The notes below the pieces were generated by a model. It did not search any database, was not told where the DNA came from, and saw only the letters and a program-made list of their open reading frames with translations. The position numbers and the translations under genes were made by a program. Shown here one piece after another: positions 15,887 through 45,081 of a DNA stretch of 64,000 nucleotides. Positions within the stretch are counted from its first letter, which is position 1. Every line of letters starts with the position of its first letter. This DNA is from Escherichia coli phage Wa28. The stretch lies in sequence record LC788710.1. One strand, written 5' to 3'.

Positions 15887-16300
15887 TCAGACTAATTCTA
15901 CGTGACCACCGTCGTAAGTACCACGATCGATCTCATCATGATAATCACCAGAACTATTCCAGTCGGCACCAAAACGAAGTTTGACACCAAGTTCCTTACC
16001 GGCTTGTTCAAAAGCCTTCTTAACAGCCCAAAATGCTTCCAGATCTTTCCAATCAATCTTTCCATTAATATATGGTGCAAAATCGATAGCGTCTCCAGTT
16101 ACATGCTTACTCTTGCTAGGGTCTTTCAAAAATGAAGTACCATTAGCAATGTTTTGGGCACTTTGTGCTACTGTACGAATACCCTGTACGATTGTGAAAT
16201 CATATGGAGATAATTCTAAAGCCCTACGAGCTACCTTTTGTAGCTCGGGCTTAACAGTTGCTAATTGTTTTTCGCTATTTTTACCAAATTTAAAACTCAT
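15887..16300 (-). CDS. lys: endolysin, L-alanyl-D-glutamate peptidase (M15-like), 137 aa
   Basis: Near-identical to remembered T5 endolysin N-terminus MSFKFGKNSEKQLATVKPELQK. Confidence 0.85.
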   Translation of the reverse strand: MSFKFGKNSEKQLATVKPELQKVARRALELSPYDFTIVQGIRTVAQSAQNIANGTSFLKDPSKSKHVTGDAIDFAPYINGKIDWKDLEAFWAVKKAFEQAGKELGVKLRFGADWNSSGDYHDEIDRGTYDGGHVELV

Positions 16301-16953
16301 ATAGATCTACCTAATGATCTCCGTTGTGGGGAACAGAGCTTTGCTAAGTACTCATTAAATTGTTCCGAATCAGCTGTATCTACGGGTTTATCCTTCCATG
16401 CAATACCTATGTATCCAGCATAGATATTATTTAGGTTGAAATATGGACAAGTGTAGACGTAATTAAAAGTAATGTTCTTAAATGCTGGTATATTTGACCC
16501 TGTATATTTATTTACTTTTACACTTAAATCCGCAGCGTAGTTAAAGCCTTCCAGGTGACGTCTATAAAGTTCAGACGTCTTATTTACTGCTTTATCGGCC
16601 AAGTCAGCCCTATCCAATTGCGCATTGCTTTCCCATGCAATAATGTTTGAATAATCATTTATAGCATCTGGTTTATACTTTACTACAAAAACGGCATCCG
16701 CACCAGTCTGGGAGAAAAGAACCATACTCTTTTCTCGTGCTACATTAGGAAAGTTATCTATCCTTTGGGTTTGAACATCCTGTAAAACCGAAGACGTGGA
16801 GAAAGTCTTTAAAAATGACATCACCTCGCTAGTGTTACTTACAAACAAGAAAATAATGACAGCAACTAAGATAGTTAGCAGACGTTTTAGTAGTGAAGCT
16901 GGATCTTTCGCTTCTTGTAGCAGTATCGTTAATAGTTGTATAAACTTTTCCAC
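16297..16953 (-). CDS. putative holin (218 aa, single TM)
   Basis: Directly upstream of endolysin with overlapping stop/start; one TM segment. Confidence 0.5.
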   Translation of the reverse strand: MEKFIQLLTILLQEAKDPASLLKRLLTILVAVIIFLFVSNTSEVMSFLKTFSTSSVLQDVQTQRIDNFPNVAREKSMVLFSQTGADAVFVVKYKPDAINDYSNIIAWESNAQLDRADLADKAVNKTSELYRRHLEGFNYAADLSVKVNKYTGSNIPAFKNITFNYVYTCPYFNLNNIYAGYIGIAWKDKPVDTADSEQFNEYLAKLCSPQRRSLGRSI

Positions 16954-17068
16954 TTGTAACCTCCTCTAACCACTACCATTATACTAATTCTAGAGTAAAA
17001 TTACAATGTGTTTTTTAAGATCACTTCTGGAGCACAATTTTTTGTCGTTGTCAAGAAGAATTTTAGGC

Positions 17069-17100
17069 AAAAGAAAAGCCAGAGTCGTTAAACTCTGGCT
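17069..17100 (-). terminator. rho-independent terminator (GCCAGAGT..ACTCTGGC)
   Basis: Hairpin preceded by A run on plus. Confidence 0.65.
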
Positions 17101-17109
17101 TAAAACTAC

Positions 17110-17709
17110 TTACACTTCTCCATGTTCTTCTGGATGCGGGGCTTGAGCTTTACTACACTGCTCTTTACGATAATTCGCCAAAATTTCAATACGCTTATTG
17201 ATTTCTTTGCTGTTGAGATAGATATTCTTATTCTCTTTTACCATGTCCTCGATTTCGTCGACAGAGAAGAACGGAAAGTAAATATCTAGCATCATATCTT
17301 CTACAAACTGGTTGTAGGATTCATATGCTTTCTTGATTTCTTGACCTTTCTCGCAGAATCCGCCAGAGAACGTATGTCCCATAAGCGTAGCATGTGGATG
17401 TACAACCCAACCGTGGCAAGATAGGAAGATTGTGCAGTAAGCAGAAGCACTAGGACCGAGTAGGTGTCCAATAACAGTTCCACGACAGTTAGCGATTAGG
17501 TTAGATAGTTGTGCAGCAGTATCAACGTAACCACCCGGCCCATTAATCATCAGATTAATTTCATCATCTTCACCAGCCTGCATCAGTATCATGGATAGGT
17601 CACGATACTCATCCGGTGAGCCTAATTCTTCATCAAAGAAAAAGGTATATTCGTTAGATTGGCGAACAGTGTGAAACAGGTTAGTCTTTTCTTCTTTCTT
17701 GTTAGTCAT
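17110..17709 (-). CDS. ClpP-like serine peptidase
   Basis: NGPGG and GPSASA / MGHTFSGG motifs resembling ClpP. Confidence 0.6.
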   Translation of the reverse strand: MTNKKEEKTNLFHTVRQSNEYTFFFDEELGSPDEYRDLSMILMQAGEDDEINLMINGPGGYVDTAAQLSNLIANCRGTVIGHLLGPSASAYCTIFLSCHGWVVHPHATLMGHTFSGGFCEKGQEIKKAYESYNQFVEDMMLDIYFPFFSVDEIEDMVKENKNIYLNSKEINKRIEILANYRKEQCSKAQAPHPEEHGEV

Positions 17710-17721
17710 AGTGATCCTTAA

Positions 17722-18474
17722 TTATCCAACTAGTGGTTCTAGCTCTAAGTCACAGAAGTGGTACACATCGGTACGAAGTGCATCAAGTCCGTTGAAGGTA
17801 TTCTCAAATTTATGAGAAATATATTTTTCAGGAATACCGCTTTCAGACGGATGATCTGTCTCGATGCGATACTTATTAGTAATACCAGATTCAACCTTAA
17901 TAAGCATGGAATCCATATCTAGAGTATTGGTTTCCATGATTAGTTCTCCCTCATTGGGGAAACGCACATCGGTAACGATTGCGACGTCTGGGTCGTCTTT
18001 ATCGATGGATTGCTCCAGAATTATGAGCCAAATGCGTTCATGCACCAGCTGCCTTCCTAACTCAGTACCTACAAGCTGTAGCATTTTTCTTGGGGAGATA
18101 AATACGCTATACAGCGCATCATCAGCTTGCCCAATTAACTGCTGAGGATCAAGGTATTTTCCTTCAAATATCGGCCAAACGTACGAGAAGTCCTCAAACT
18201 TATCGATACCATACTTAAACCATACGTCTCTAGCTCGCTCCAATTGAGATTGTGTGACTGTAAACCATTGGTCAATCTCTTTTCCCCTGCGCTCTCCCAG
18301 AAACTCTGGAGTTACCCCGAGGATTACGGATGCAAGTTCGTAAACGGGTTTAGCAAAACTGTAACGACGGGATAAACACGTTGGGAACGTGTCATTACAC
18401 CAGTCAATCATTAATTCTGCAACGGTATCTTTTCCCGCACCAGCCTCACCATGTAAACCGACTAATACTGACAT
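17722..18474 (-). CDS. deoxynucleoside monophosphate kinase
   Basis: P-loop GEAGAGKDT close to N-terminus, as in T4 dNMP kinase. Confidence 0.65.
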   Translation of the reverse strand: MSVLVGLHGEAGAGKDTVAELMIDWCNDTFPTCLSRRYSFAKPVYELASVILGVTPEFLGERRGKEIDQWFTVTQSQLERARDVWFKYGIDKFEDFSYVWPIFEGKYLDPQQLIGQADDALYSVFISPRKMLQLVGTELGRQLVHERIWLIILEQSIDKDDPDVAIVTDVRFPNEGELIMETNTLDMDSMLIKVESGITNKYRIETDHPSESGIPEKYISHKFENTFNGLDALRTDVYHFCDLELEPLVG

Positions 18475-18827
18475 TAATCTTTCCTATTTGTAATGGGTGG
18501 ATAGTAAACTAAGCAACGTTTTTCTTGTAAATCTTGACGATAGAAGCAAACCATACCAGTCAGTCGTGAAATGTAAGAGTAAACTGCTTCCTCGCATTTT
18601 GCTTTTGCATTCCAATCTTTGTAAGGTACAACAACTACTACGCCATCTTCGCCATTCGTAGCTAATTTCTTTTCGAATTTGAAATCAAAGCTACACGGCT
18701 GAAGTCCTTTAGGCCAGTCAACATGGGCTTGCTTTAACTCATGTGAAGGCTCTGGTTTTATTTCTTCTGCACAGCCTGTGATTGTGATTGCGGCTGCGAG
18801 CAGTACTCCAAGTTTCCAGTTAAGCAT
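18474..18827 (-). CDS. lipoprotein, candidate outer-membrane spanin
   Basis: Signal peptide ITGC lipobox; start embedded in preceding gene. Confidence 0.45.
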   Translation of the reverse strand: MLNWKLGVLLAAAITITGCAEEIKPEPSHELKQAHVDWPKGLQPCSFDFKFEKKLATNGEDGVVVVVPYKDWNAKAKCEEAVYSYISRLTGMVCFYRQDLQEKRCLVYYPPITNRKD

Positions 18828-19207
18828 GCTAATCTTTCCTCGAACTCCTTACTCTGCTTTTTAGCAATTAATGTAACCAATCCAGGCTTTGCAGCTATAA
18901 TGTCTTGACGACTAAGTGCTTTATCAAGCTGACTAATTTTCTTGTCTAGATCTGCTTGGGAAACATTATTCATTGTGAAATACTGATTCATACGAGTTTC
19001 ACGAAGTTCACTTTCAGCTTTCACATTATTAAGGGAAGTCTCTAGGGACGTAATCTTTTTAGTAGCTACTGCAAGATCACCTGCTAGAGTCTCAACCTTA
19101 TTTACTAAGTGATAAGCACCGAATCCGATACCTATCGCAAGACCAGCTCCCAGGATATACCACTTACCTTGCCATATTCCTGAAAGAAGTTTTTGTATCA
19201 AATCCAT
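18758..19207 (-). CDS. N-terminal TM + coiled-coil protein, candidate inner-membrane spanin
   Basis: TM helix then long coiled coil; overlaps lipoprotein gene. Confidence 0.45.
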   Translation of the reverse strand: MDLIQKLLSGIWQGKWYILGAGLAIGIGFGAYHLVNKVETLAGDLAVATKKITSLETSLNNVKAESELRETRMNQYFTMNNVSQADLDKKISQLDKALSRQDIIAAKPGLVTLIAKKQSKEFEERLACLTGNLEYCSQPQSQSQAVQKK

Positions 19208-34077: not shown

Positions 34078-34770
34078 TTATTTGTTAACGCGTACAAAGT
34101 ATCCTTTATAAGCTCCAAGAATAGAGTTGCCTAAGAATACTAGCCACATTGCTAGGATTGCGTAAGATGCACCTGTAGATTGAGCAGTTACAAGCCAAAT
34201 GTACACAGTACCAATGTTAATAGCAATCCAAATCAGCCATTGTTCAGCATATTGTTTGACCATAAGCCACATAGCAATCACACTACCAACCGCAGTAAAT
34301 GCATCCAACATTGGGAATGGATCAGCCGTAGTAGCAAGGAAACTACCATAACCTAACGTGGCTACTGCTAAAATCCCTAGAGTCAGCAAAGCTTGAGCTT
34401 TTGTCAGAACTTTAGTTGGAACATCCGGTAGATTACTTGGCTTATTTTTATGCCACAAGTACATTCCGTAGAACTGCATAGGAACGTAGTACAATAGGTT
34501 TAGTGCTGCGTTACCATAAAGATCAGCATTTAGAGCTGTAATACCGTAGGTCAGAACACCTACCAAACCCCAGACATAGTTGGAAACACGTCCTTTTGCA
34601 ACCAGAATAACACAAACCACATTGGTTATTGCAGTAGCCCAATCTAGAGCTGTACCATTATAGTTTGCTAAACTAATGAAGACAACCGCTATGAACAGCC
34701 ACAGATATTCCAGAGGTTTCCAGTTTTTAAAGTCATTTACGAGATAGTTAGTCATATTAAAACTCTCCAA
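34078..34770 (-). CDS. pnuC: PnuC-family nicotinamide riboside/NMN transporter
   Basis: Multi-TM; EQWLIWIAINIGTVYIW resembles E. coli PnuC ENWLLWVIINVISVVIF. Confidence 0.75.
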   Translation of the reverse strand: MESFNMTNYLVNDFKNWKPLEYLWLFIAVVFISLANYNGTALDWATAITNVVCVILVAKGRVSNYVWGLVGVLTYGITALNADLYGNAALNLLYYVPMQFYGMYLWHKNKPSNLPDVPTKVLTKAQALLTLGILAVATLGYGSFLATTADPFPMLDAFTAVGSVIAMWLMVKQYAEQWLIWIAINIGTVYIWLVTAQSTGASYAILAMWLVFLGNSILGAYKGYFVRVNK

Positions 34771-35830
34771 CGTTAAAGTGATGAATCAGCCAGTCTACTG
34801 CGTTTACTGCTTCGTCCATACGAACTTTGTAGTCCGGAGAGTCGATGTAAACAGTACGCCCTTCAGGGAACTGATTTGGAAATTCTTTCTTCATCTGCTC
34901 GAACAGTTCAGAAGTAATTGAACGATCGGAGTTAATACGTAAACCATCATCTACCCACTTGACAGTAGGCGCTAGAACAATTACTAAATCGTAATGTTCT
35001 TCTTTTGCAATTGCTGTAACCACAGGGTTCTTACTATGTTCATAAAGTCTGTGGTAGAACTCAGTAATAAAAGCATTTGTATCCACAAACATGATCTTAT
35101 TTGCAGTACGTTCTGCTTCAAACTCTAGCTCTTTGTGTCTGAACGCAATTTTACTATAGTCTTCGCTGGTAAGCAGATTTTCGTTACCAACTAGATCAAC
35201 TTCACAATACGTTCGGCCATATTCTTCTACCCACGAAGTGTTGTATAGCTTCGCAAGGTATTTTGTTAAAGTAGTCTTTCCTGAGCTTTCAGTCCCAATG
35301 ATTACAACCTTACGCACGTAATCTTTACGAGCTACGCTAGGAAGAAACTCCCAATACTTCATAAGATCATTACGAATCATTGTAGCTGAGATTGGAACAC
35401 GAGTCCGATCAGAATCTACAATATAATGACCAAACTTCGGCAGATATTTCTTATATTCTGCATCATAGTCTAGTTCGCTAGAGAAAATGGTGATCTCAGG
35501 CAAATGTCCGTAATTTTCATTAAGGATTCTAGCATATTCCGGCCAACCATTCGGATATTCAGGAATATCATCTTCAATAATGTACTCTACCGAAATGTGC
35601 TCAATATCCGCGTAAGTTTGTTCTAACCAACGAAGTCGATTCTTTAACTGTAATACTTCCTGATCACGAGTGTTCTGCTTATCCAGCCAACGATTATCAT
35701 GACTAACTACAACAATAACTCGTTCACACATAGTTGCTGCTGTGTTTATTAGGTTAATATGACCACGCGTTAATGGCGCGAACTTACCAATTACTAGACC
35801 AGTCTTAATCATATTTGATTCCTCTCTCAA
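34757..35830 (-). CDS. nadR: NadR-like bifunctional NMN adenylyltransferase / ribosylnicotinamide kinase
   Basis: N-terminal GKFAPLTRGH nucleotidyltransferase motif; central GTESSGKTT P-loop. Confidence 0.75.
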   Translation of the reverse strand: MREESNMIKTGLVIGKFAPLTRGHINLINTAATMCERVIVVVSHDNRWLDKQNTRDQEVLQLKNRLRWLEQTYADIEHISVEYIIEDDIPEYPNGWPEYARILNENYGHLPEITIFSSELDYDAEYKKYLPKFGHYIVDSDRTRVPISATMIRNDLMKYWEFLPSVARKDYVRKVVIIGTESSGKTTLTKYLAKLYNTSWVEEYGRTYCEVDLVGNENLLTSEDYSKIAFRHKELEFEAERTANKIMFVDTNAFITEFYHRLYEHSKNPVVTAIAKEEHYDLVIVLAPTVKWVDDGLRINSDRSITSELFEQMKKEFPNQFPEGRTVYIDSPDYKVRMDEAVNAVDWLIHHFNVGEF

Positions 35831-36083: not shown

Positions 36084-37028
36084 TTACTTGTTACGCATAT
36101 CCATGATCATTTGACCATCGTAGCCAGTACCAACAACAGTCTGCGGTACACCACCTTGGTATTTTTCAGCACGAAGCATTTCAACTTCCAGCTGCTTCCA
36201 ACGAATCATTTCAGGAGTAATGGTACGTTGCAGCGCGGCGTTAGCTTCAGCTTCTTTCTTAGCTGCGTACAGTTTAGCATCTGCGTCACGTTCGTTAGCT
36301 ACTGCCATGTTTTCACGAGCAGAACGATCAGCTTCAGCTTGCTTAACTTTCTGCTGTGCTTCTTGTTCAACACGAGCCAATTCAGCTTTAGCGGCGTTAA
36401 CTTGTTCTTCACGAACTTTTGTGTTTTGTACCTGTTCCATGATTACAGGTGGCAGAGTAATATCCTGAAGGAATACTTGCTTAACCGTGTAACCATAAGG
36501 ACGCGCGTACTCTTCTACTTCTTGCTGAATAGCAGTTTGCAGTTGAGCCTGAATCTTAGCGTCGAACAGATCTTGTGCTTTTGGTACAGACTTACCAAAC
36601 TCACGAATCGTAGATAGCATCTTCTCTTCAACGTACTTGTTCAGAGCTTGATCCTGAGTACCTGCGTTAACACGGTTCATAGGAGCTTTAGCACCATCAA
36701 ACTGCAACATAACGGTAATGTCAACAGTGGACTTAAACTTATCCTGGCTAGGAACCTGGAGTTTATCCAGTTTCATAGAAATATCTTTCGTACTAAAAGT
36801 ATCAAAAGAGGCGAATGGGTTGACAATATGGAACCCCGGCAATACAGGATTAGGACTAACTTTACCCAGGAAAGTCTGAGTTTTAACCGTACCGTCCTGA
36901 ACAACTGTATAGGAATTGAGAGCCAGAATAAGAGCGCCAAGACCAACTACAGCACCAACACCCCAACGTTTAATAGTACGAATTACTTTTTGATCGGAAG
37001 TCAGTTCTTTAGTGTTTTTAGTAAACAT
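36084..37028 (-). CDS. SPFH/band-7 (prohibitin/HflC-like) membrane protein
   Basis: N-terminal TM, SPFH core, Ala/Glu/Lys-rich coiled-coil tail. Confidence 0.75.
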   Translation of the reverse strand: MFTKNTKELTSDQKVIRTIKRWGVGAVVGLGALILALNSYTVVQDGTVKTQTFLGKVSPNPVLPGFHIVNPFASFDTFSTKDISMKLDKLQVPSQDKFKSTVDITVMLQFDGAKAPMNRVNAGTQDQALNKYVEEKMLSTIREFGKSVPKAQDLFDAKIQAQLQTAIQQEVEEYARPYGYTVKQVFLQDITLPPVIMEQVQNTKVREEQVNAAKAELARVEQEAQQKVKQAEADRSARENMAVANERDADAKLYAAKKEAEANAALQRTITPEMIRWKQLEVEMLRAEKYQGGVPQTVVGTGYDGQMIMDMRNK

Positions 37029-43302: not shown

Positions 43303-43791
43303 TTACATCTCAGCAAGTTCTTGCTCAGTAATTACAGTATTGCATAGAGCATCAACTTCTTCATTACCACGAATACCTGAGTGACCTTTAACCTTAACAA
43401 AGGTTGGATTGGTATCATGGAAGTTAATGTACTGTTGGGTTAGTTTAAATGCTTCTTGCCAGAGTTCTAGATTAAGAGGGGTTTCACCATCTCCCTTCTT
43501 CCAGCCTTTCTTCTGCCAAGACCACATCCAGCTTTCCATACCATTTTTGCAGTAAGCAGAATCAGTGTAGATAATTACTGGACGATTATCTTTCTTAGTA
43601 GACCAACGAAGAACTTCTACAATTGCAGTAAGTTCCATTTCGTTATTAGTAGTTTTAGGGCTGAAGCCAGATTTAGAGCCAATACGATCATCATTATCAT
43701 TATAGACAACGAATCCCCACGCACCTAAACCAGGATTGCCTTTACATGCACCATCTGTATATATGTGGAAAACCGACATTATTTGCTCCAA
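43303..43791 (-). CDS. rnhA: ribonuclease H
   Basis: HIYTDGACKGNPG, ELTA, YTDS, GHSG..GNEEVD motifs. Confidence 0.8.
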   Translation of the reverse strand: MEQIMSVFHIYTDGACKGNPGLGAWGFVVYNDNDDRIGSKSGFSPKTTNNEMELTAIVEVLRWSTKKDNRPVIIYTDSAYCKNGMESWMWSWQKKGWKKGDGETPLNLELWQEAFKLTQQYINFHDTNPTFVKVKGHSGIRGNEEVDALCNTVITEQELAEM

Positions 43792-44048
43792 TCAATTTCA
43801 AGCCAAAAACCTTCACGCTGTTCATACTTAGCTTCTACAACATAACCTAGTTTGCTAAGTTTTTGCATGACGCTATTTCTAGCGTTTTCTGAGTATTCAG
43901 TTAATCCCTGGATGTGACAATTAAATTCTTTATCTTTAATAGCTTTGTCAATCTCTACGGCAATAAGTGATTCTAGGTCAATTACTTCCTTTTTAATGCT
44001 AGCAATAGTATTTTGTTTTGCTTCTAAAGCAGATAAAAGAATAGACAT
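43779..44048 (-). CDS. hypothetical protein (89 aa)
   Basis: ORF. Confidence 0.45.
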   Translation of the reverse strand: MSILLSALEAKQNTIASIKKEVIDLESLIAVEIDKAIKDKEFNCHIQGLTEYSENARNSVMQKLSKLGYVVEAKYEQREGFWLEIDWSK

Positions 44049-44050
44049 AT

Positions 44051-44629
44051 TTATTCTCCAATTACTAAAATATCATGTTGAGAAGATACACCACACATAT
44101 AATCTGCACAATGCGTAAAAGCCAGATCAATGATTTCAAATATATCATCTACATCTAAATCTGTGGCTCGACAATCCGCAATAGCTAAACCTGTACGAAT
44201 ACTGGAAAGTACATCTTCTCCTCCACAGCCTACACCGGCATATTCAACTTCTAGAATAGAAGCATTAGATTGGAAAATAAAGATTCTTCCTTTGTAGAGC
44301 ATAATAAATTGTCCCAGATTAGGTTCAGCATATTTTTCATTTTTCTTTTCGCCAAAATCTTTCTGGTTAAACATATCACGTAATTTAGGTACTATTTCCG
44401 TATATAAATATTTATCATCAGAAATATCTGCTAAACGTGGTGGTACAGTAAAGCTATGCTCTAGTAATTGTCCCATGTAGAAGGAACTAGTGTATCCGAA
44501 GCACAAATCATCAGAGATTTTGAATACTTTCGGATTTTTAACCAGCAGTTTCGTATAGCCATTAGAACCCATACGATCACCGGCTAAGTATACTTTATCT
44601 TTATATTTAAATGCTACTATGGCTGTCAT
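44051..44629 (-). CDS. Ntn-hydrolase (HslV/proteasome-beta-like) peptidase, putative
   Basis: Thr directly after initiator Met (MTAIVAFKYKDKVYLAGD). Confidence 0.45.
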   Translation of the reverse strand: MTAIVAFKYKDKVYLAGDRMGSNGYTKLLVKNPKVFKISDDLCFGYTSSFYMGQLLEHSFTVPPRLADISDDKYLYTEIVPKLRDMFNQKDFGEKKNEKYAEPNLGQFIMLYKGRIFIFQSNASILEVEYAGVGCGGEDVLSSIRTGLAIADCRATDLDVDDIFEIIDLAFTHCADYMCGVSSQHDILVIGE

Positions 44630-44659
44630 TATTAAATCCTTCTGTCAAATTAGAAGTAT

Positions 44660-44688
44660 ATTATATTTGAATTTCACTCAGTAAGCAA
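44660..44688 (-). promoter_or_regulatory. early promoter TTGCTT-17-TATAAT
   Basis: Motif read. Confidence 0.65.
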
Positions 44689-44727
44689 ATGAAATTTAAA
44701 TATAATAGCCCCGAAGGGCTATTTGAA

Positions 44728-45081
44728 TTAGATTATAATCAAGATTATTAGGGCGTATGTCAGATAATGCAGTAACTGATCAAATCCTAAAGCTATCCAA
44801 AACTTAGCATCGCTTATAGCGTATTTACAGCGTTGTGCTTTCCAATAATCTATAATAAAGTGTAGAATTAATTCCATAATAGCTAAAGCTATAGACATTC
44901 CTGGTGATGTGAATAGGATTAGAATTGCAAATGTTAATCCAGCATGTACTAGCGAATGGGTTAATAATGGAAGTTTCCACCCTATTTTATGCGTCTTTCT
45001 TAGCATATATGGTGTTTGGAGTGGATAATCGGCCATAAAATGTTTTAGAAAGAATATGACAAATAATAGTATAATTAACAT
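44728..45081 (-). CDS. membrane protein (117 aa)
   Basis: ORF, 3 hydrophobic segments. Confidence 0.5.
   Translation of the reverse strand: MLIILLFVIFFLKHFMADYPLQTPYMLRKTHKIGWKLPLLTHSLVHAGLTFAILILFTSPGMSIALAIMELILHFIIDYWKAQRCKYAISDAKFWIALGFDQLLHYLTYALIILIII

What the first reader, a model, noticed from the sequence alone, without database searches (positions are those of the whole stretch)
17110..17709. Two phage-encoded compartmentalised-protease-like subunits (ClpP-like; HslV-like at 44051-44629)
A ClpP-like serine peptidase and an Ntn-hydrolase with Thr at position 2, like HslV, are both present. Phage-encoded proteolytic subunits could redirect host AAA+ unfoldases or process phage and host proteins.
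Basis: partly seen in the sequence, partly recalled or inferred. Interest (0 to 1): 0.45.

Follow-up and report, generated by a model that had tools for sequence, protein, structure and literature searches.

The report
Two orphan phage protease subunits
This T5-like phage really does carry a ClpP-type serine protease gene and a proteasome/HslV-type threonine protease gene, but both are already annotated in hundreds of related phages, are only distant relatives of the host enzymes, lack the features those enzymes use to dock onto host unfoldases, and have no known function.

Summary
Both ORFs exist exactly as stated, in an Epseptimavirus (T5-like) genome that is 99.5-100% identical to deposited phages.

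**ORF 17110-17709(-)**
- It is the orthologue of T5.042 (88% identity).
- It has a ClpP fold and scores above the Pfam CLP_protease threshold. Ser89 and His112 are invariant.
- The triad Asp is Asn162 in this clade, but Asp or Glu in 28 of 36 family members.
- The ClpP N-terminal axial loop is missing, and three docking-pocket residues are polar.
- It scores far below the ClpP equivalog cut-offs.
- It closes an early operon (spanins-dnk-ORF-terminator). It is "Not Fit" (dispensable) in T5 CRISPRi-ART. Three peptides of it were found in BF23 virions.

**ORF 44051-44629(-)**
- It is a proteasome-beta/HslV-fold Ntn hydrolase.
- Thr2, Asp18 and Lys34 are conserved in 149 of 149 diverse relatives.
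- It belongs to a large phage and prophage family, probably AAH of Fuchs et al. 2021.
- It has a 10-residue pore-loop insertion relative to HslV and lacks HslV Lys28.
- It lies in a three-gene insertion that T5 lacks.

The two genes are inherited independently, and no unfoldase gene is in the window. The idea that they redirect host AAA+ unfoldases is not supported by the docking features. The genes are already known as annotations, and their function remains open.

The parts
17110..17709 (-). ClpP-superfamily serine peptidase, 199 aa; orthologue of T5.042 (88% identity)
17443..17445 (-). Codon of Ser89, which aligns with the ClpP nucleophile Ser97; invariant in 36/36 family members
17374..17376 (-). 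Codon of His112, which aligns with ClpP His122; invariant in 36/36
17224..17226 (-). Codon of Asn162 (AAT) at the position of ClpP Asp171; Asn in the 8 closest sequences, Asp in 27 and Glu in 1 of the rest
17076..17101 (-). Terminator-like hairpin (11-bp stem plus T-run) directly after the ClpP-like stop codon; ends the T5.047-spanin-dnk-ClpP-like transcription unit
   Evidence: T5 record annotates the same feature
16978..17006 (-). Promoter-like site TTGTAA-17-TATAAT in front of the holin gene; separates holin and endolysin from the ClpP-like gene
17722..18474 (-). dNMP kinase (dnk), the upstream operon neighbour of the ClpP-like gene
18474..19207 (-). Overlapping Rz-like spanin pair (18474-18827 lipoprotein; 18758-19207 membrane protein), same operon
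15887..16953 (-). T-type holin (16297-16953) and M15 endolysin (15887-16300), downstream unit with its own promoter
44051..44629 (-). Proteasome-beta/HslV-fold Ntn threonine hydrolase, 192 aa, no propeptide
44624..44626 (-). Codon of Thr2 (Thr1 after Met removal), the predicted nucleophile; 149/149 in diverse relatives
44576..44578 (-). Codon of Asp18 (= proteasome/HslV Asp17); 149/149
44528..44530 (-). Codon of Lys34 (= Lys33); 149/149
44225..44227 (-). Codon of Cys135 in the G-C-G-G motif, at the position of the Ser in the HslV GSGG motif (Cys 87, Ser 51 of 149)
44306..44362 (-). Residues 90-108, the loop after helix H2 ('pore loop'), about 10 residues longer than in E. coli HslV
43779..44048 (-). 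89-aa ORF of unknown function (PHROG 13270), 2 nt downstream of the HslV-like stop; not conserved next to distant HslV-like genes
44728..45081 (-). DUF3307 membrane protein, upstream neighbour; part of the three-gene insertion between thy and rnh that T5 lacks

Best explanation
The window carries two unrelated accessory peptidase genes that are inherited independently. Both come from old phage lineages, not from recent capture of host clpP or hslV. (1) 17110-17709(-) is the T5.042 orthologue. It is a ClpP-fold serine peptidase with the Ser89-His112 pair intact and the third triad residue changed from the ancestral Asp to Asn162 in the E. coli/Salmonella/Klebsiella T5-like clade. It is the last gene of an early operon (T5.047, spanins, dnk, ClpP-like, terminator). 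Knock-down has no fitness effect in the laboratory. By sequence it is nearer to phage ClpP-related proteases than to cellular ClpP. It lacks the ClpP axial N-terminal loops, and its unfoldase-docking pocket is remodelled. I therefore infer that it works without host ClpX/ClpA, as a small self-assembling peptidase acting on unfolded or specific phage or host substrates. (2) 44051-44629(-) is a member of a very large phage and prophage family of proteasome-beta/HslV-like Ntn hydrolases, most probably the 'AAH' cluster of Fuchs et al. 2021. It has no propeptide, so host methionine aminopeptidase would expose Thr1. Thr1, Asp17 and Lys33 are conserved in every relative examined, so it is almost certainly catalytically active. 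Its longer pore loop, the missing Lys28 and its better structural match to BPH suggest a ring peptidase that does not depend on HslU. Shown here: the folds, catalytic residues, distribution, operon structure and absence of docking features. Inferred: oligomeric state, independence from unfoldases and substrates.
For: Identity and context: (Epseptimavirus, 99.5-100% identity; RefSeq names 'ATP-dependent protease' and 'peptidase HslV family'). ClpP-like: Pfam and PHROG hits; profile against PDB ClpPs at E 7e-14 (27); Foldseek top 50 all ClpP at 2.5 A; Ser89 and His112 in 36/36, position 162 as N x8, D x27, E x1 (93); N-terminal 19 residues disordered and unconserved; pocket residues Y60->N, F82->N/T/D/S, I90->H; NCBIfam scores of 41 bits to 'head maturation protease, ClpP-related' against 15-20 bits to ClpP equivalogs whose cut-offs are 228-347 (84); terminator after the gene and promoter before the holin; T5.042 'Not Fit'; 1316 phage records carry relatives, always among early or nucleotide-metabolism genes and never in head modules. 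HslV-like: Pfam; AF2 pLDDT 91 (35); Foldseek hits to HslV at E 2e-10 with TM 0.62-0.64 and to BPH with TM 0.71-0.75 (37); 27 viral structure clusters; 818 clusters at E<=1e-30 and 4387 at E<=1e-10 in the 50%-identity library; Thr2, Asp18, Lys34, Gly45 and Gly134 in 149/149 and an MT start in 140/148 (83); 10-residue loop insertion and L29 at the HslV Lys28 position (33, 83); relatives of 177-197 aa in alpha-proteobacteria, Actinobacteria, Firmicutes and others, next to terminase, HNH or DUF5131 genes in two of three cases checked, which fits the AAH description in PMC8665760; absent from T5, where rnh abuts thy. No ClpX- or HslU-like ORF in the window.
Against: No oligomer model and no biochemistry: ring assembly, activity and independence from unfoldases are all inferred. 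The pocket and Lys28 arguments rest on sequence alignment at 15-20% identity, and on my recollection of which ClpP and HslV residues contact the unfoldases. An Asn in the triad may mean low or conditional activity, as in Listeria ClpP1, and not an ordinary active peptidase. The three BF23 virion peptides hint at a role other than a cytoplasmic one. The AAH assignment rests on distribution and architecture; it was not checked against the published AAH representative. CRISPRi knock-down 'Not Fit' is not a clean knockout and was measured in one laboratory host.
Confidence: 0.6

Rival explanations
1. First reader's model. The phage subunits dock onto host AAA+ unfoldases (ClpX/ClpA for the ClpP-like protein, HslU for the HslV-like protein) and redirect ATP-dependent degradation during infection.
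For: Both proteins have the right folds and catalytic residues. The phage window encodes no unfoldase of its own, so any ATP-dependent activity would need a host partner. Public annotations call the first one 'ATP-dependent protease', but only by homology.
Against: The ClpP N-terminal loops and helix A are missing. Docking-pocket residues Y60, F82 and I90 are replaced by N, N and H. The HslV Lys28 equivalent is hydrophobic and the pore loop is 10 residues longer, which resembles unfoldase-free BPH (PMC8665760). Scores are far below the ClpP and HslV equivalog thresholds.
Confidence: 0.15
2. The ClpP-like protein is a catalytically attenuated subunit (Asn162 in place of Asp) that works only in a mixed complex. 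For example, a phage heptamer could stack on a host ClpP heptamer, as Listeria ClpP1 (Asn172) does with ClpP2. This would modulate or poison host ClpP.
For: The Asp-to-Asn change is fixed in the whole enterobacterial T5-like clade while Ser and His stay invariant. The handle helix needed for ring-ring contact is predicted (H123-144). The Listeria ClpP1/2 heterocomplex is among the structural matches (4ryf). That ClpP1 carries Asn172 is from my own knowledge.
Against: Only 15-20% identity to host ClpP. The residues next to the triad Asp, which form the inter-ring sensor in ClpP, are not conserved: invariant Asn160 and variable position 161. Relatives with Asp occur in phages of many hosts, so the ancestral protein presumably worked on its own.
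Confidence: 0.1
3. The ClpP-like protein is a morphogenesis- or virion-associated protease, a relative of ClpP-type prohead proteases. It would trim a structural or injected protein, or be packaged and delivered to the next host.
For: Its best curated sequence matches are phage head-maturation protease families: PHROG 1684 at E 1e-20 and NCBIfam Clp_rel_HeadMat at 41 bits. The BF23 orthologue (ORF45) was detected in purified virions with 3 peptides (PMC10644984). A long C-terminal helix (167-189) follows the protease core.
Against: The gene lies in the early region between dnk and the holin, not in the head module, in T5-likes and in distant phages. T5-like phages have a separate, essential prohead protease. 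T5.042 is 'Not Fit'. The virion signal is low, and DHFR, a likely contaminant, was detected too. The NCBIfam score is far below the 120-bit cut-off.
Confidence: 0.12
4. The HslV-like protein is not a protease. It would be a ligase or transpeptidase (as connectase is), or an amidohydrolase acting on a non-protein substrate.
For: The proteasome-like superfamily includes connectase, a ligase (PMC8665760). The family has its own strictly conserved motif, G-Y-T-S-S-F-x-M-G-Q, next to the active site, which is not found in HslV.
Against: It lacks the S3/S4 two-helix insertion that defines connectase, and it keeps the H1-H4 architecture (PMC8665760). The Thr1/Asp17/Lys33 triad and the closest structures are those of peptidases.
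Confidence: 0.06

Closest known systems
Bacterial ClpP (MEROPS S14; e.g. E. coli ClpP, PDB 1tyf/1yg6)
   Same: Same alpha/beta fold with the handle helix (2.5 A rmsd over about 160 columns). The nucleophile Ser and the general-base His sit at aligned positions. The GPGG oxyanion-loop motif is present. The Pfam CLP_protease score is above threshold.
   Different: Only 15-20% identity. The N-terminal axial loop and helix A are missing. Asn replaces the triad Asp. Docking-pocket residues are polar. There is a C-terminal helix extension. Scores are 15-20 bits against equivalog cut-offs of 228-347.
Listeria monocytogenes ClpP1 (Asn172 variant; ClpP1/2 heterocomplex, PDB 4ryf)
   Same: A natural ClpP-fold protein with Asn at the triad Asp position, and a structural match. 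The Asn172 fact is from my own knowledge.
   Different: ClpP1 is a close paralogue of a co-encoded ClpP2. The phage protein has no co-encoded partner and is very distant from host ClpP.
ClpP-related phage head-maturation proteases (NCBIfam NF045542; PHROG 1684/94)
   Same: Best curated sequence matches (41 bits; E 1e-20). The lineage is phage-borne. They too lack the unfoldase-docking N-terminus.
   Different: The gene is not in the head module, is not essential, and scores far below the family cut-off. T5-like phages use a different prohead protease.
HslV (ClpQ), e.g. E. coli 1ned/1e94
   Same: Ntn fold. Thr1 is exposed by simple Met removal. Asp17 and Lys33 sit at identical positions, and the alignment is ungapped over residues 1-40. 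A GxGG motif is present.
   Different: 15-18% identity and TM only 0.62-0.64. The pore loop has a 10-residue insertion. Lys28 is replaced by Leu. Cys replaces Ser in the GSGG motif. There is no adjacent hslU gene and no NCBIfam HslV hit.
BPH (beta-proteobacterial proteasome homologue, PDB 5ovs/5ovt/5ovu)
   Same: The best structural superposition (TM 0.71-0.75). A compact subunit, a longer pore loop and no known unfoldase partner (PMC8665760).
   Different: The BPH loop is highly acidic, whereas this one has about neutral net charge. Sequence identity is 14-18%. The heptameric rings of BPH were not tested here.
AAH / PPH / RPC phage-associated proteasome-like clusters (Fuchs, Alva, Lupas, Hartmann 2021, PMC8665760)
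   Same: Group-I proteasome-like proteins carried by Caudovirales and prophages. The AAH description (alpha-proteobacteria, Actinobacteria, Firmicutes through phages, many phage genomes, H1-H4 retained) fits the distribution and architecture found here.
   Different: It is not PPH, which is about 140 aa and lacks H2. The assignment to AAH was not verified against the published representative sequence. None of these clusters has been characterised experimentally.

Membership tests
ClpP (bona fide ATP-dependent Clp protease proteolytic subunit, S14) | ClpP alpha/beta fold with handle helix | tested here: met
   AF2 model against PDB: top 50 hits all ClpP, rmsd 2.5-3 A over about 160 columns, E about 2e-9
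ClpP (bona fide ATP-dependent Clp protease proteolytic subunit, S14) | Nucleophile Ser97 and His122 | tested here: met
   Ser89 and His112 align and are invariant in 36/36
ClpP (bona fide ATP-dependent Clp protease proteolytic subunit, S14) | Triad Asp171 | tested here: not met
   Asn162 in this protein and its 7 closest relatives; Asp in 27 and Glu in 1 of the remaining 28 family members
ClpP (bona fide ATP-dependent Clp protease proteolytic subunit, S14) | Score above curated ClpP equivalog/subfamily cut-offs | tested here: not met
   TIGR00493 15.2 bits against 308.6; PRK00277 20 against 249. Only the broad Pfam CLP_protease domain passes, at 31.1 against 20.2
ClpP (bona fide ATP-dependent Clp protease proteolytic subunit, S14) | Conserved N-terminal axial loop and helix A that gate the pore and contact the unfoldase | tested here: not met
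   Residues 1-19 have pLDDT below 60, are variable in length and unconserved in the family, and E. coli ClpP residues 1-46 find no counterpart
ClpP (bona fide ATP-dependent Clp protease proteolytic subunit, S14) | Hydrophobic pocket for ClpX IGF / ClpA IGL loops (Y60, Y62, F82, I90, M92, F112, L114; list from my own knowledge) | tested here: not met
   The aligned residues are N52, M54, N74, H82 (invariant), L84, V102 and H104
ClpP (bona fide ATP-dependent Clp protease proteolytic subunit, S14) | Double-heptamer barrel | not testable with these tools
   No multimer prediction was available
ClpP-related phage head-maturation protease (NF045542) | Score above the family cut-off | tested here: not met
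   41.2 bits against a 120 cut-off
ClpP-related phage head-maturation protease (NF045542) | Gene located in the head module, and required for growth | tested here: not met
   The gene lies between dnk and the holin in the early region. A separate prohead protease exists in BF23. T5.042 is 'Not Fit'
HslV (ClpQ) | Proteasome-beta Ntn fold | tested here: met
   Foldseek against HslV, E 2e-10 to 4e-9
HslV (ClpQ) | Thr1 / Asp17 / Lys33 | tested here: met
   Thr2, Asp18 and Lys34 are each 149/149
HslV (ClpQ) | Score on the curated HslV model | tested here: not met
   No HslV family among the NCBIfam hits at E<=0.1; only weak proteasome-beta hits of 13-16 bits
HslV (ClpQ) | Short pore loop (HslU-gated) | tested here: not met
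   10-residue insertion relative to E. coli HslV; the loop is 11-26 residues across the family, most often 15
HslV (ClpQ) | Lys28, which receives the HslU C-terminal carboxylate (role from my own knowledge) | tested here: not met
   Leu29 in the window protein; the column is I/V/T/L in most of the 149 relatives
HslV (ClpQ) | Cognate hslU next to the gene | tested here: not met
   The neighbours are a DUF3307 protein, an 89-aa ORF, rnh and thy. There is no HslU-like ORF in the window
HslV (ClpQ) | Double-hexamer assembly | not testable with these tools
   No multimer prediction was available
Phage/prophage proteasome-like homologues, group I (AAH of Fuchs et al. 2021) | Compact subunit with H1-H4, no propeptide and no S12/H5 | tested here: met
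   DSSP of the model gives helices 50-59, 71-89, 137-153 and 160-177, and the protein ends after the last strand. An MT start is seen in 140/148 relatives
Phage/prophage proteasome-like homologues, group I (AAH of Fuchs et al. 2021) | Found in phages plus alpha-proteobacteria, Actinobacteria and Firmicutes, often in a prophage context | tested here: met
   197 phage records. Also Devosia, Leisingera, Actinoallomurus, Amycolatopsis, Paenibacillus, Oceanobacillus and others. Terminase or HNH/DUF5131 genes are neighbours in Devosia and Spongiibacter
Phage/prophage proteasome-like homologues, group I (AAH of Fuchs et al. 2021) | Sequence clusters with the published AAH representative (WP_035979212) | not tested
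   The representative sequence could not be retrieved with the tools

The most novel reading that the evidence does not exclude
The Asn162 form of the ClpP-like protein, fixed in enterobacterial T5-like phages, is a conditional subunit. It would become active, or alter host proteolysis, only by stacking on a host ClpP heptamer, in the way Listeria ClpP1 stacks on ClpP2. This would give the phage a hybrid protease that re-specifies or throttles host ClpP-dependent degradation, for example of antitoxins or defence regulators. Alongside it, the HslV-like protein would be an unfoldase-free viral mini-proteasome used in host takeover.
Probability: 0.07. Interest if true: 0.75.

Novelty: already known. 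Interest (0 to 1): 0.3.

Why it matters
Standalone ClpP-type and proteasome-type peptidases are common in virulent phages. The ClpP-like family is in 1316 phage records. The HslV-like family has more than 4000 clusters at 50% identity with E<=1e-10. None has an assigned role. Several bacterial defence systems and toxin-antitoxin systems depend on host ClpP, Lon or HslUV, so a phage-borne protease core could be a takeover or counter-defence tool. This window adds no new gene to that list. It does supply three concrete, testable points: the clade-specific Asp-to-Asn triad change, the missing unfoldase-docking features, and the presence or absence of the HslV-like module among otherwise near-identical T5-like phages.

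Tried and rejected
- **MAFFT alignment.** Adding E. coli ClpP to the family alignment with MAFFT --add --keeplength gave an obviously shifted alignment (Ser97 opposite Cys92). I discarded it and used hmmalign, hhalign and HMMER alignments instead.
- **Conserved partner of the HslV-like gene.** The 89-aa ORF, the DUF3307 protein and the 92-aa ORF have no homologues beside the HslV-like genes of Erwinia, Aeromonas, Vibrio, Asteriusvirus or Psychrobacter phages. The only match was the 92-aa ORF in Erwinia phage KEY, a closely related T5-like phage.
- **Link between the two proteases.** In the jumbo phage Ecwhy_1 a Clp-type ORF sits two genes upstream of the HslV-like gene. The T5.042 family profile does not detect that ORF. 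This was the only case found, so it was not taken further.
- **NfeD/stomatin idea.** The ClpP-like protein has a weak NfeD1b_N hit, and the phage encodes an SPFH protein at 36084-37028. However, the two families do not co-occur across phages.
- **Phage-encoded unfoldase.** tblastn of E. coli ClpX and HslU against the window found only the P-loop of a NadR-like protein.
- **Structure library.** The afdb50 fold library was unavailable.
- **Literature.** Searches for functional work on T5.042, phage ClpP-like or phage HslV-like proteins returned three things: the BF23 virion proteomics, the CRISPRi-ART table and the Fuchs et al. survey. One search gave only a 1-kb contig with no context.
Full report
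**What the window is**

Megablast of both regions against the phage collection gives 99.5-100% identity to E. coli phage Shin27, Salmonella phage 3-29 and many other Epseptimavirus genomes (Demerecviridae, T5-like). RefSeq already names the two genes 'ATP-dependent protease' and 'peptidase HslV family'.

**Observation check**

- The 199-aa product of 17110-17709 passes the Pfam CLP_protease threshold (31.1 bits against 20.2, E 2.6e-7). It matches PHROG 1827 at E 2e-88.
- The 192-aa product of 44051-44629 matches Pfam Proteasome over its full length (38 bits against 22.4, E 1.8e-9). It also matches PHROG 1040, 'peptidase HslV family'.

These are not chance similarities. AlphaFold2 models built on family alignments are confident, with pLDDT 81.5 and 91.0. 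For the second it returns HslV, BPH and proteasome beta subunits at E about 1e-10.

**The ClpP-like protein**

*Orthology.* It is 88% identical to T5.042 over the same 199 residues.

*Catalytic residues.* I examined a family of 36 sequences collected with two database searches.
- Ser89, which aligns with ClpP Ser97, is invariant.
- His112, which aligns with ClpP His122, is invariant.
- The position of the triad Asp171 was located through the HMMER alignment to Coxiella ClpP. It is Asn162 in the window protein and its seven closest relatives, including T5. It is Asp in 27 more distant members and Glu in one. Asp is therefore ancestral, and Asn is a fixed, clade-specific change (AAT codon at 17224-17226).

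*Differences from cellular ClpP.*
- The first 19 residues are predicted to be disordered, vary in length and are not conserved. E. coli ClpP residues up to the end of helix A have no counterpart.
- Several residues that, to my knowledge, line the ClpX/ClpA docking pocket are replaced. Y60 becomes N52, F82 becomes N74, and I90 becomes an invariant H82. Y62, M92, F112 and L114 become M54, L84, V102 and H104.
- NCBIfam gives 15-20 bits on ClpP models whose cut-offs are 228-347 bits. The best curated hit is 'head maturation protease, ClpP-related' at 41 bits against a cut-off of 120.

The protein is therefore a member of the ClpP superfamily from a phage lineage. It is not a ClpP orthologue, and it is not a recognised prohead protease.

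*Context of the ClpP-like gene.* An 11-bp-stem terminator follows its stop codon directly (17101-17076). A TTGTAA-17-TATAAT promoter precedes the holin gene. The T5 record annotates the same terminator and promoter, plus a promoter upstream of T5.047. The gene therefore closes an early unit that runs T5.047, (hegF in T5), the two spanins, dnk, then the ClpP-like gene. The T-type holin and the endolysin form the next unit.

*Distribution.* Relatives occur in 1316 phage records, including T5-likes and phages of Vibrio, Rheinheimera, Pseudomonas (PAK_P1-like) and Acinetobacter. In the three distant phages inspected, the gene sits among early or nucleotide-metabolism genes and not in a head module. 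The neighbours there were dnk and endolysin; PhoH and a methylase; and dCMP deaminase and ligase.

*Published data.*
- The CRISPRi-ART supplement lists T5.042 as 'Not Fit', meaning knock-down had no fitness effect (PMC11879866).
- BF23 virion proteomics detected the orthologue ORF45 with three peptides and states that its function is unknown (PMC10644984).

**The HslV-like protein**

*Catalytic residues.* Thr2, Asp18 and Lys34 align without gaps to Thr1, Asp17 and Lys33 of E. coli HslV. They are invariant in the 19 closest homologues. They are also invariant in all 149 sequences compared: the window protein plus 148 representatives, no two of which share more than 50% identity. In that set 140 of 148 start with Met-Thr. 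The nucleophile would therefore be exposed by host methionine aminopeptidase, as in E. coli HslV. That Thr is an acceptable second residue for this enzyme is established knowledge.

*Family size.* The family has 818 clusters at E<=1e-30 and 4387 at E<=1e-10. BFVD contains 27 viral structure clusters with this fold.

*Differences from HslV.*
- Identity is 15-18% and TM is 0.62-0.64. BPH superposes better, at TM 0.71-0.75.
- The loop after helix H2 carries a 10-residue insertion.
- The residue aligned with HslV Lys28 is Leu29. Lys28 is, to my knowledge, the residue that receives the HslU C-terminus. The column is hydrophobic across the family.
- Cys replaces Ser in the G-S-G-G motif.
- No NCBIfam HslV hit is returned.

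Fuchs et al. (PMC8665760) point out that the pore loop is short in HslU-gated HslV and long in BPH, which has no unfoldase.

*Likely cluster.* Fuchs et al. describe phage-borne proteasome-like clusters PPH (about 140 aa, lacking H2), AAH and CPH. The protein here has all four helices. Homologues of 177-197 aa occur in alpha-proteobacteria, Actinobacteria, Firmicutes and other phyla. Terminase, or HNH and DUF5131 genes, lie next to them in Devosia and Spongiibacter. That fits AAH. I could not compare with the published AAH representative, so the assignment is an inference.

*Context of the HslV-like gene.* In T5, rnh (T5.091) directly abuts thy (T5.092). In the window three genes lie between them:
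- a DUF3307 membrane protein (44728-45081);
- the HslV-like gene, preceded by a hairpin and a promoter-like site;
- an 89-aa ORF that starts 2 nt after the HslV-like stop.

About 125 T5-like records carry the HslV-like gene at 90% identity or more. About 440 carry the ClpP-like gene at 80% identity or more. The HslV-like module is therefore accessory. None of its neighbours is conserved next to the distant homologues in Aeromonas, Vibrio, Asteriusvirus or Psychrobacter phages.

**Are the two genes connected?**

They are 27 kb apart, in different transcription units, and have different distributions. No ClpX- or HslU-like ORF is in the window; the only tblastn hit is the P-loop of a NadR-like enzyme. 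In one jumbo phage a Clp-type ORF lies two genes upstream of the HslV-like gene. It is not detectably related to the T5.042 family. I treat the pairing in the finding as incidental.

**Mechanism**

*Best-supported reading (confidence about 0.6).* These are two independent, probably active, self-assembling peptidases that do not use the canonical host unfoldase interfaces.
- Shown here: the folds, the conservation of catalytic residues, the loss of docking features, the operon structure, dispensability in the laboratory, and the distribution.
- Inferred: ring assembly, independence from unfoldases, and substrates.

*Rivals.*
- A conditional Asn162 subunit that pairs with host ClpP, as Listeria ClpP1 does with ClpP2 (0.10).
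- A virion- or morphogenesis-associated protease, suggested by the prohead-protease affinities and the BF23 peptides (0.12).
- A non-protease activity for the HslV-like protein, as in connectase (0.06).

**Novelty and score**

The exact proteins are in public records with the same homology-based names. T5.042 has been flagged as of unknown function, and phage proteasome-like families have been catalogued. As an observation the finding is therefore already known. What remains open is function, which no paper in the searchable library addresses experimentally. I score interest at 0.3: the annotation-level finding is correct and an unanswered biological question sits behind it, but nothing in it would surprise a specialist.

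Noticed in passing
window 36084-37028 (-): A 314-aa SPFH/Band-7 (stomatin/prohibitin-like) protein with an N-terminal membrane anchor (Pfam E 2.9e-19). Homologues are present in T5-like and in T4-like phages (736 records). In cells, NfeD-type ClpP-class proteases pair with stomatins, but the phage SPFH and ClpP-like families do not co-occur consistently.
   Followed up: partly
window 34078-35830 (-): A PnuC-type NMN transporter (34078-34770) and a NadR-like NMN adenylyltransferase/ribosylnicotinamide kinase (34757-35830), that is, a phage NAD+ salvage pair.
   Followed up: partly
window 43779-45081 (-) compared with T5 L005:2413-3862: Three genes (DUF3307 membrane protein, HslV-like, 89-aa ORF) are inserted between thy and rnh relative to T5, where the two genes are separated only by a promoter.
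   Followed up: yes
L007:3570-4454 (Aeromonas phage 2L372D gp211) and L011:3001-3963 (Vibrio phage VPMCC14): The Aeromonas phage has a second Ntn/proteasome-type paralogue (294 aa, Thr at position 2) directly after its HslV-like gene. Its acidic C-terminal extension resembles, by eye, the extension fused to the 320-aa HslV-like protein of the Vibrio phage. This may correspond to the 'RPC' type with a C-terminal extension.
   Followed up: partly
L009:2046-2651 (Escherichia phage Ecwhy_1, Asteriusvirus): A 201-aa ORF with a hydrophobic N-terminus that looks like a signal sequence (judged by eye) and a Pfam CLP_protease hit (20.6 bits) lies two genes upstream of that jumbo phage's HslV-like gene. 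A Sir2-like gene and a PhoH-like gene lie downstream.
   Followed up: partly
L012:3399-4361 (Vibrio phage 234P1, Demerecviridae): The ClpP-like gene is 320 aa here, with a C-terminal extension, and its end overlaps the start of the L-Ala-D-Glu endolysin gene. dnk lies two genes upstream. The dnk / ClpP-like / endolysin neighbourhood is thus conserved across Demerecviridae even without the T-type holin.
   Followed up: partly
BF23 virion proteomics (PMC10644984): Dihydrofolate reductase, as well as the Clp-type protease, was detected in purified BF23 virions. Either both are low-level contaminants or T5-like virions carry unexpected enzymes.
   Followed up: no
window 17347-17349 (-), Lys121: A near-invariant Lys-Gly (34/36 and 35/36) sits in the glycine-rich strand before the handle helix of the ClpP-like family. 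Cellular ClpP has no Lys there. Its role is unknown: it could be a family-specific substrate-binding residue or an alternative catalytic residue.
   Followed up: no
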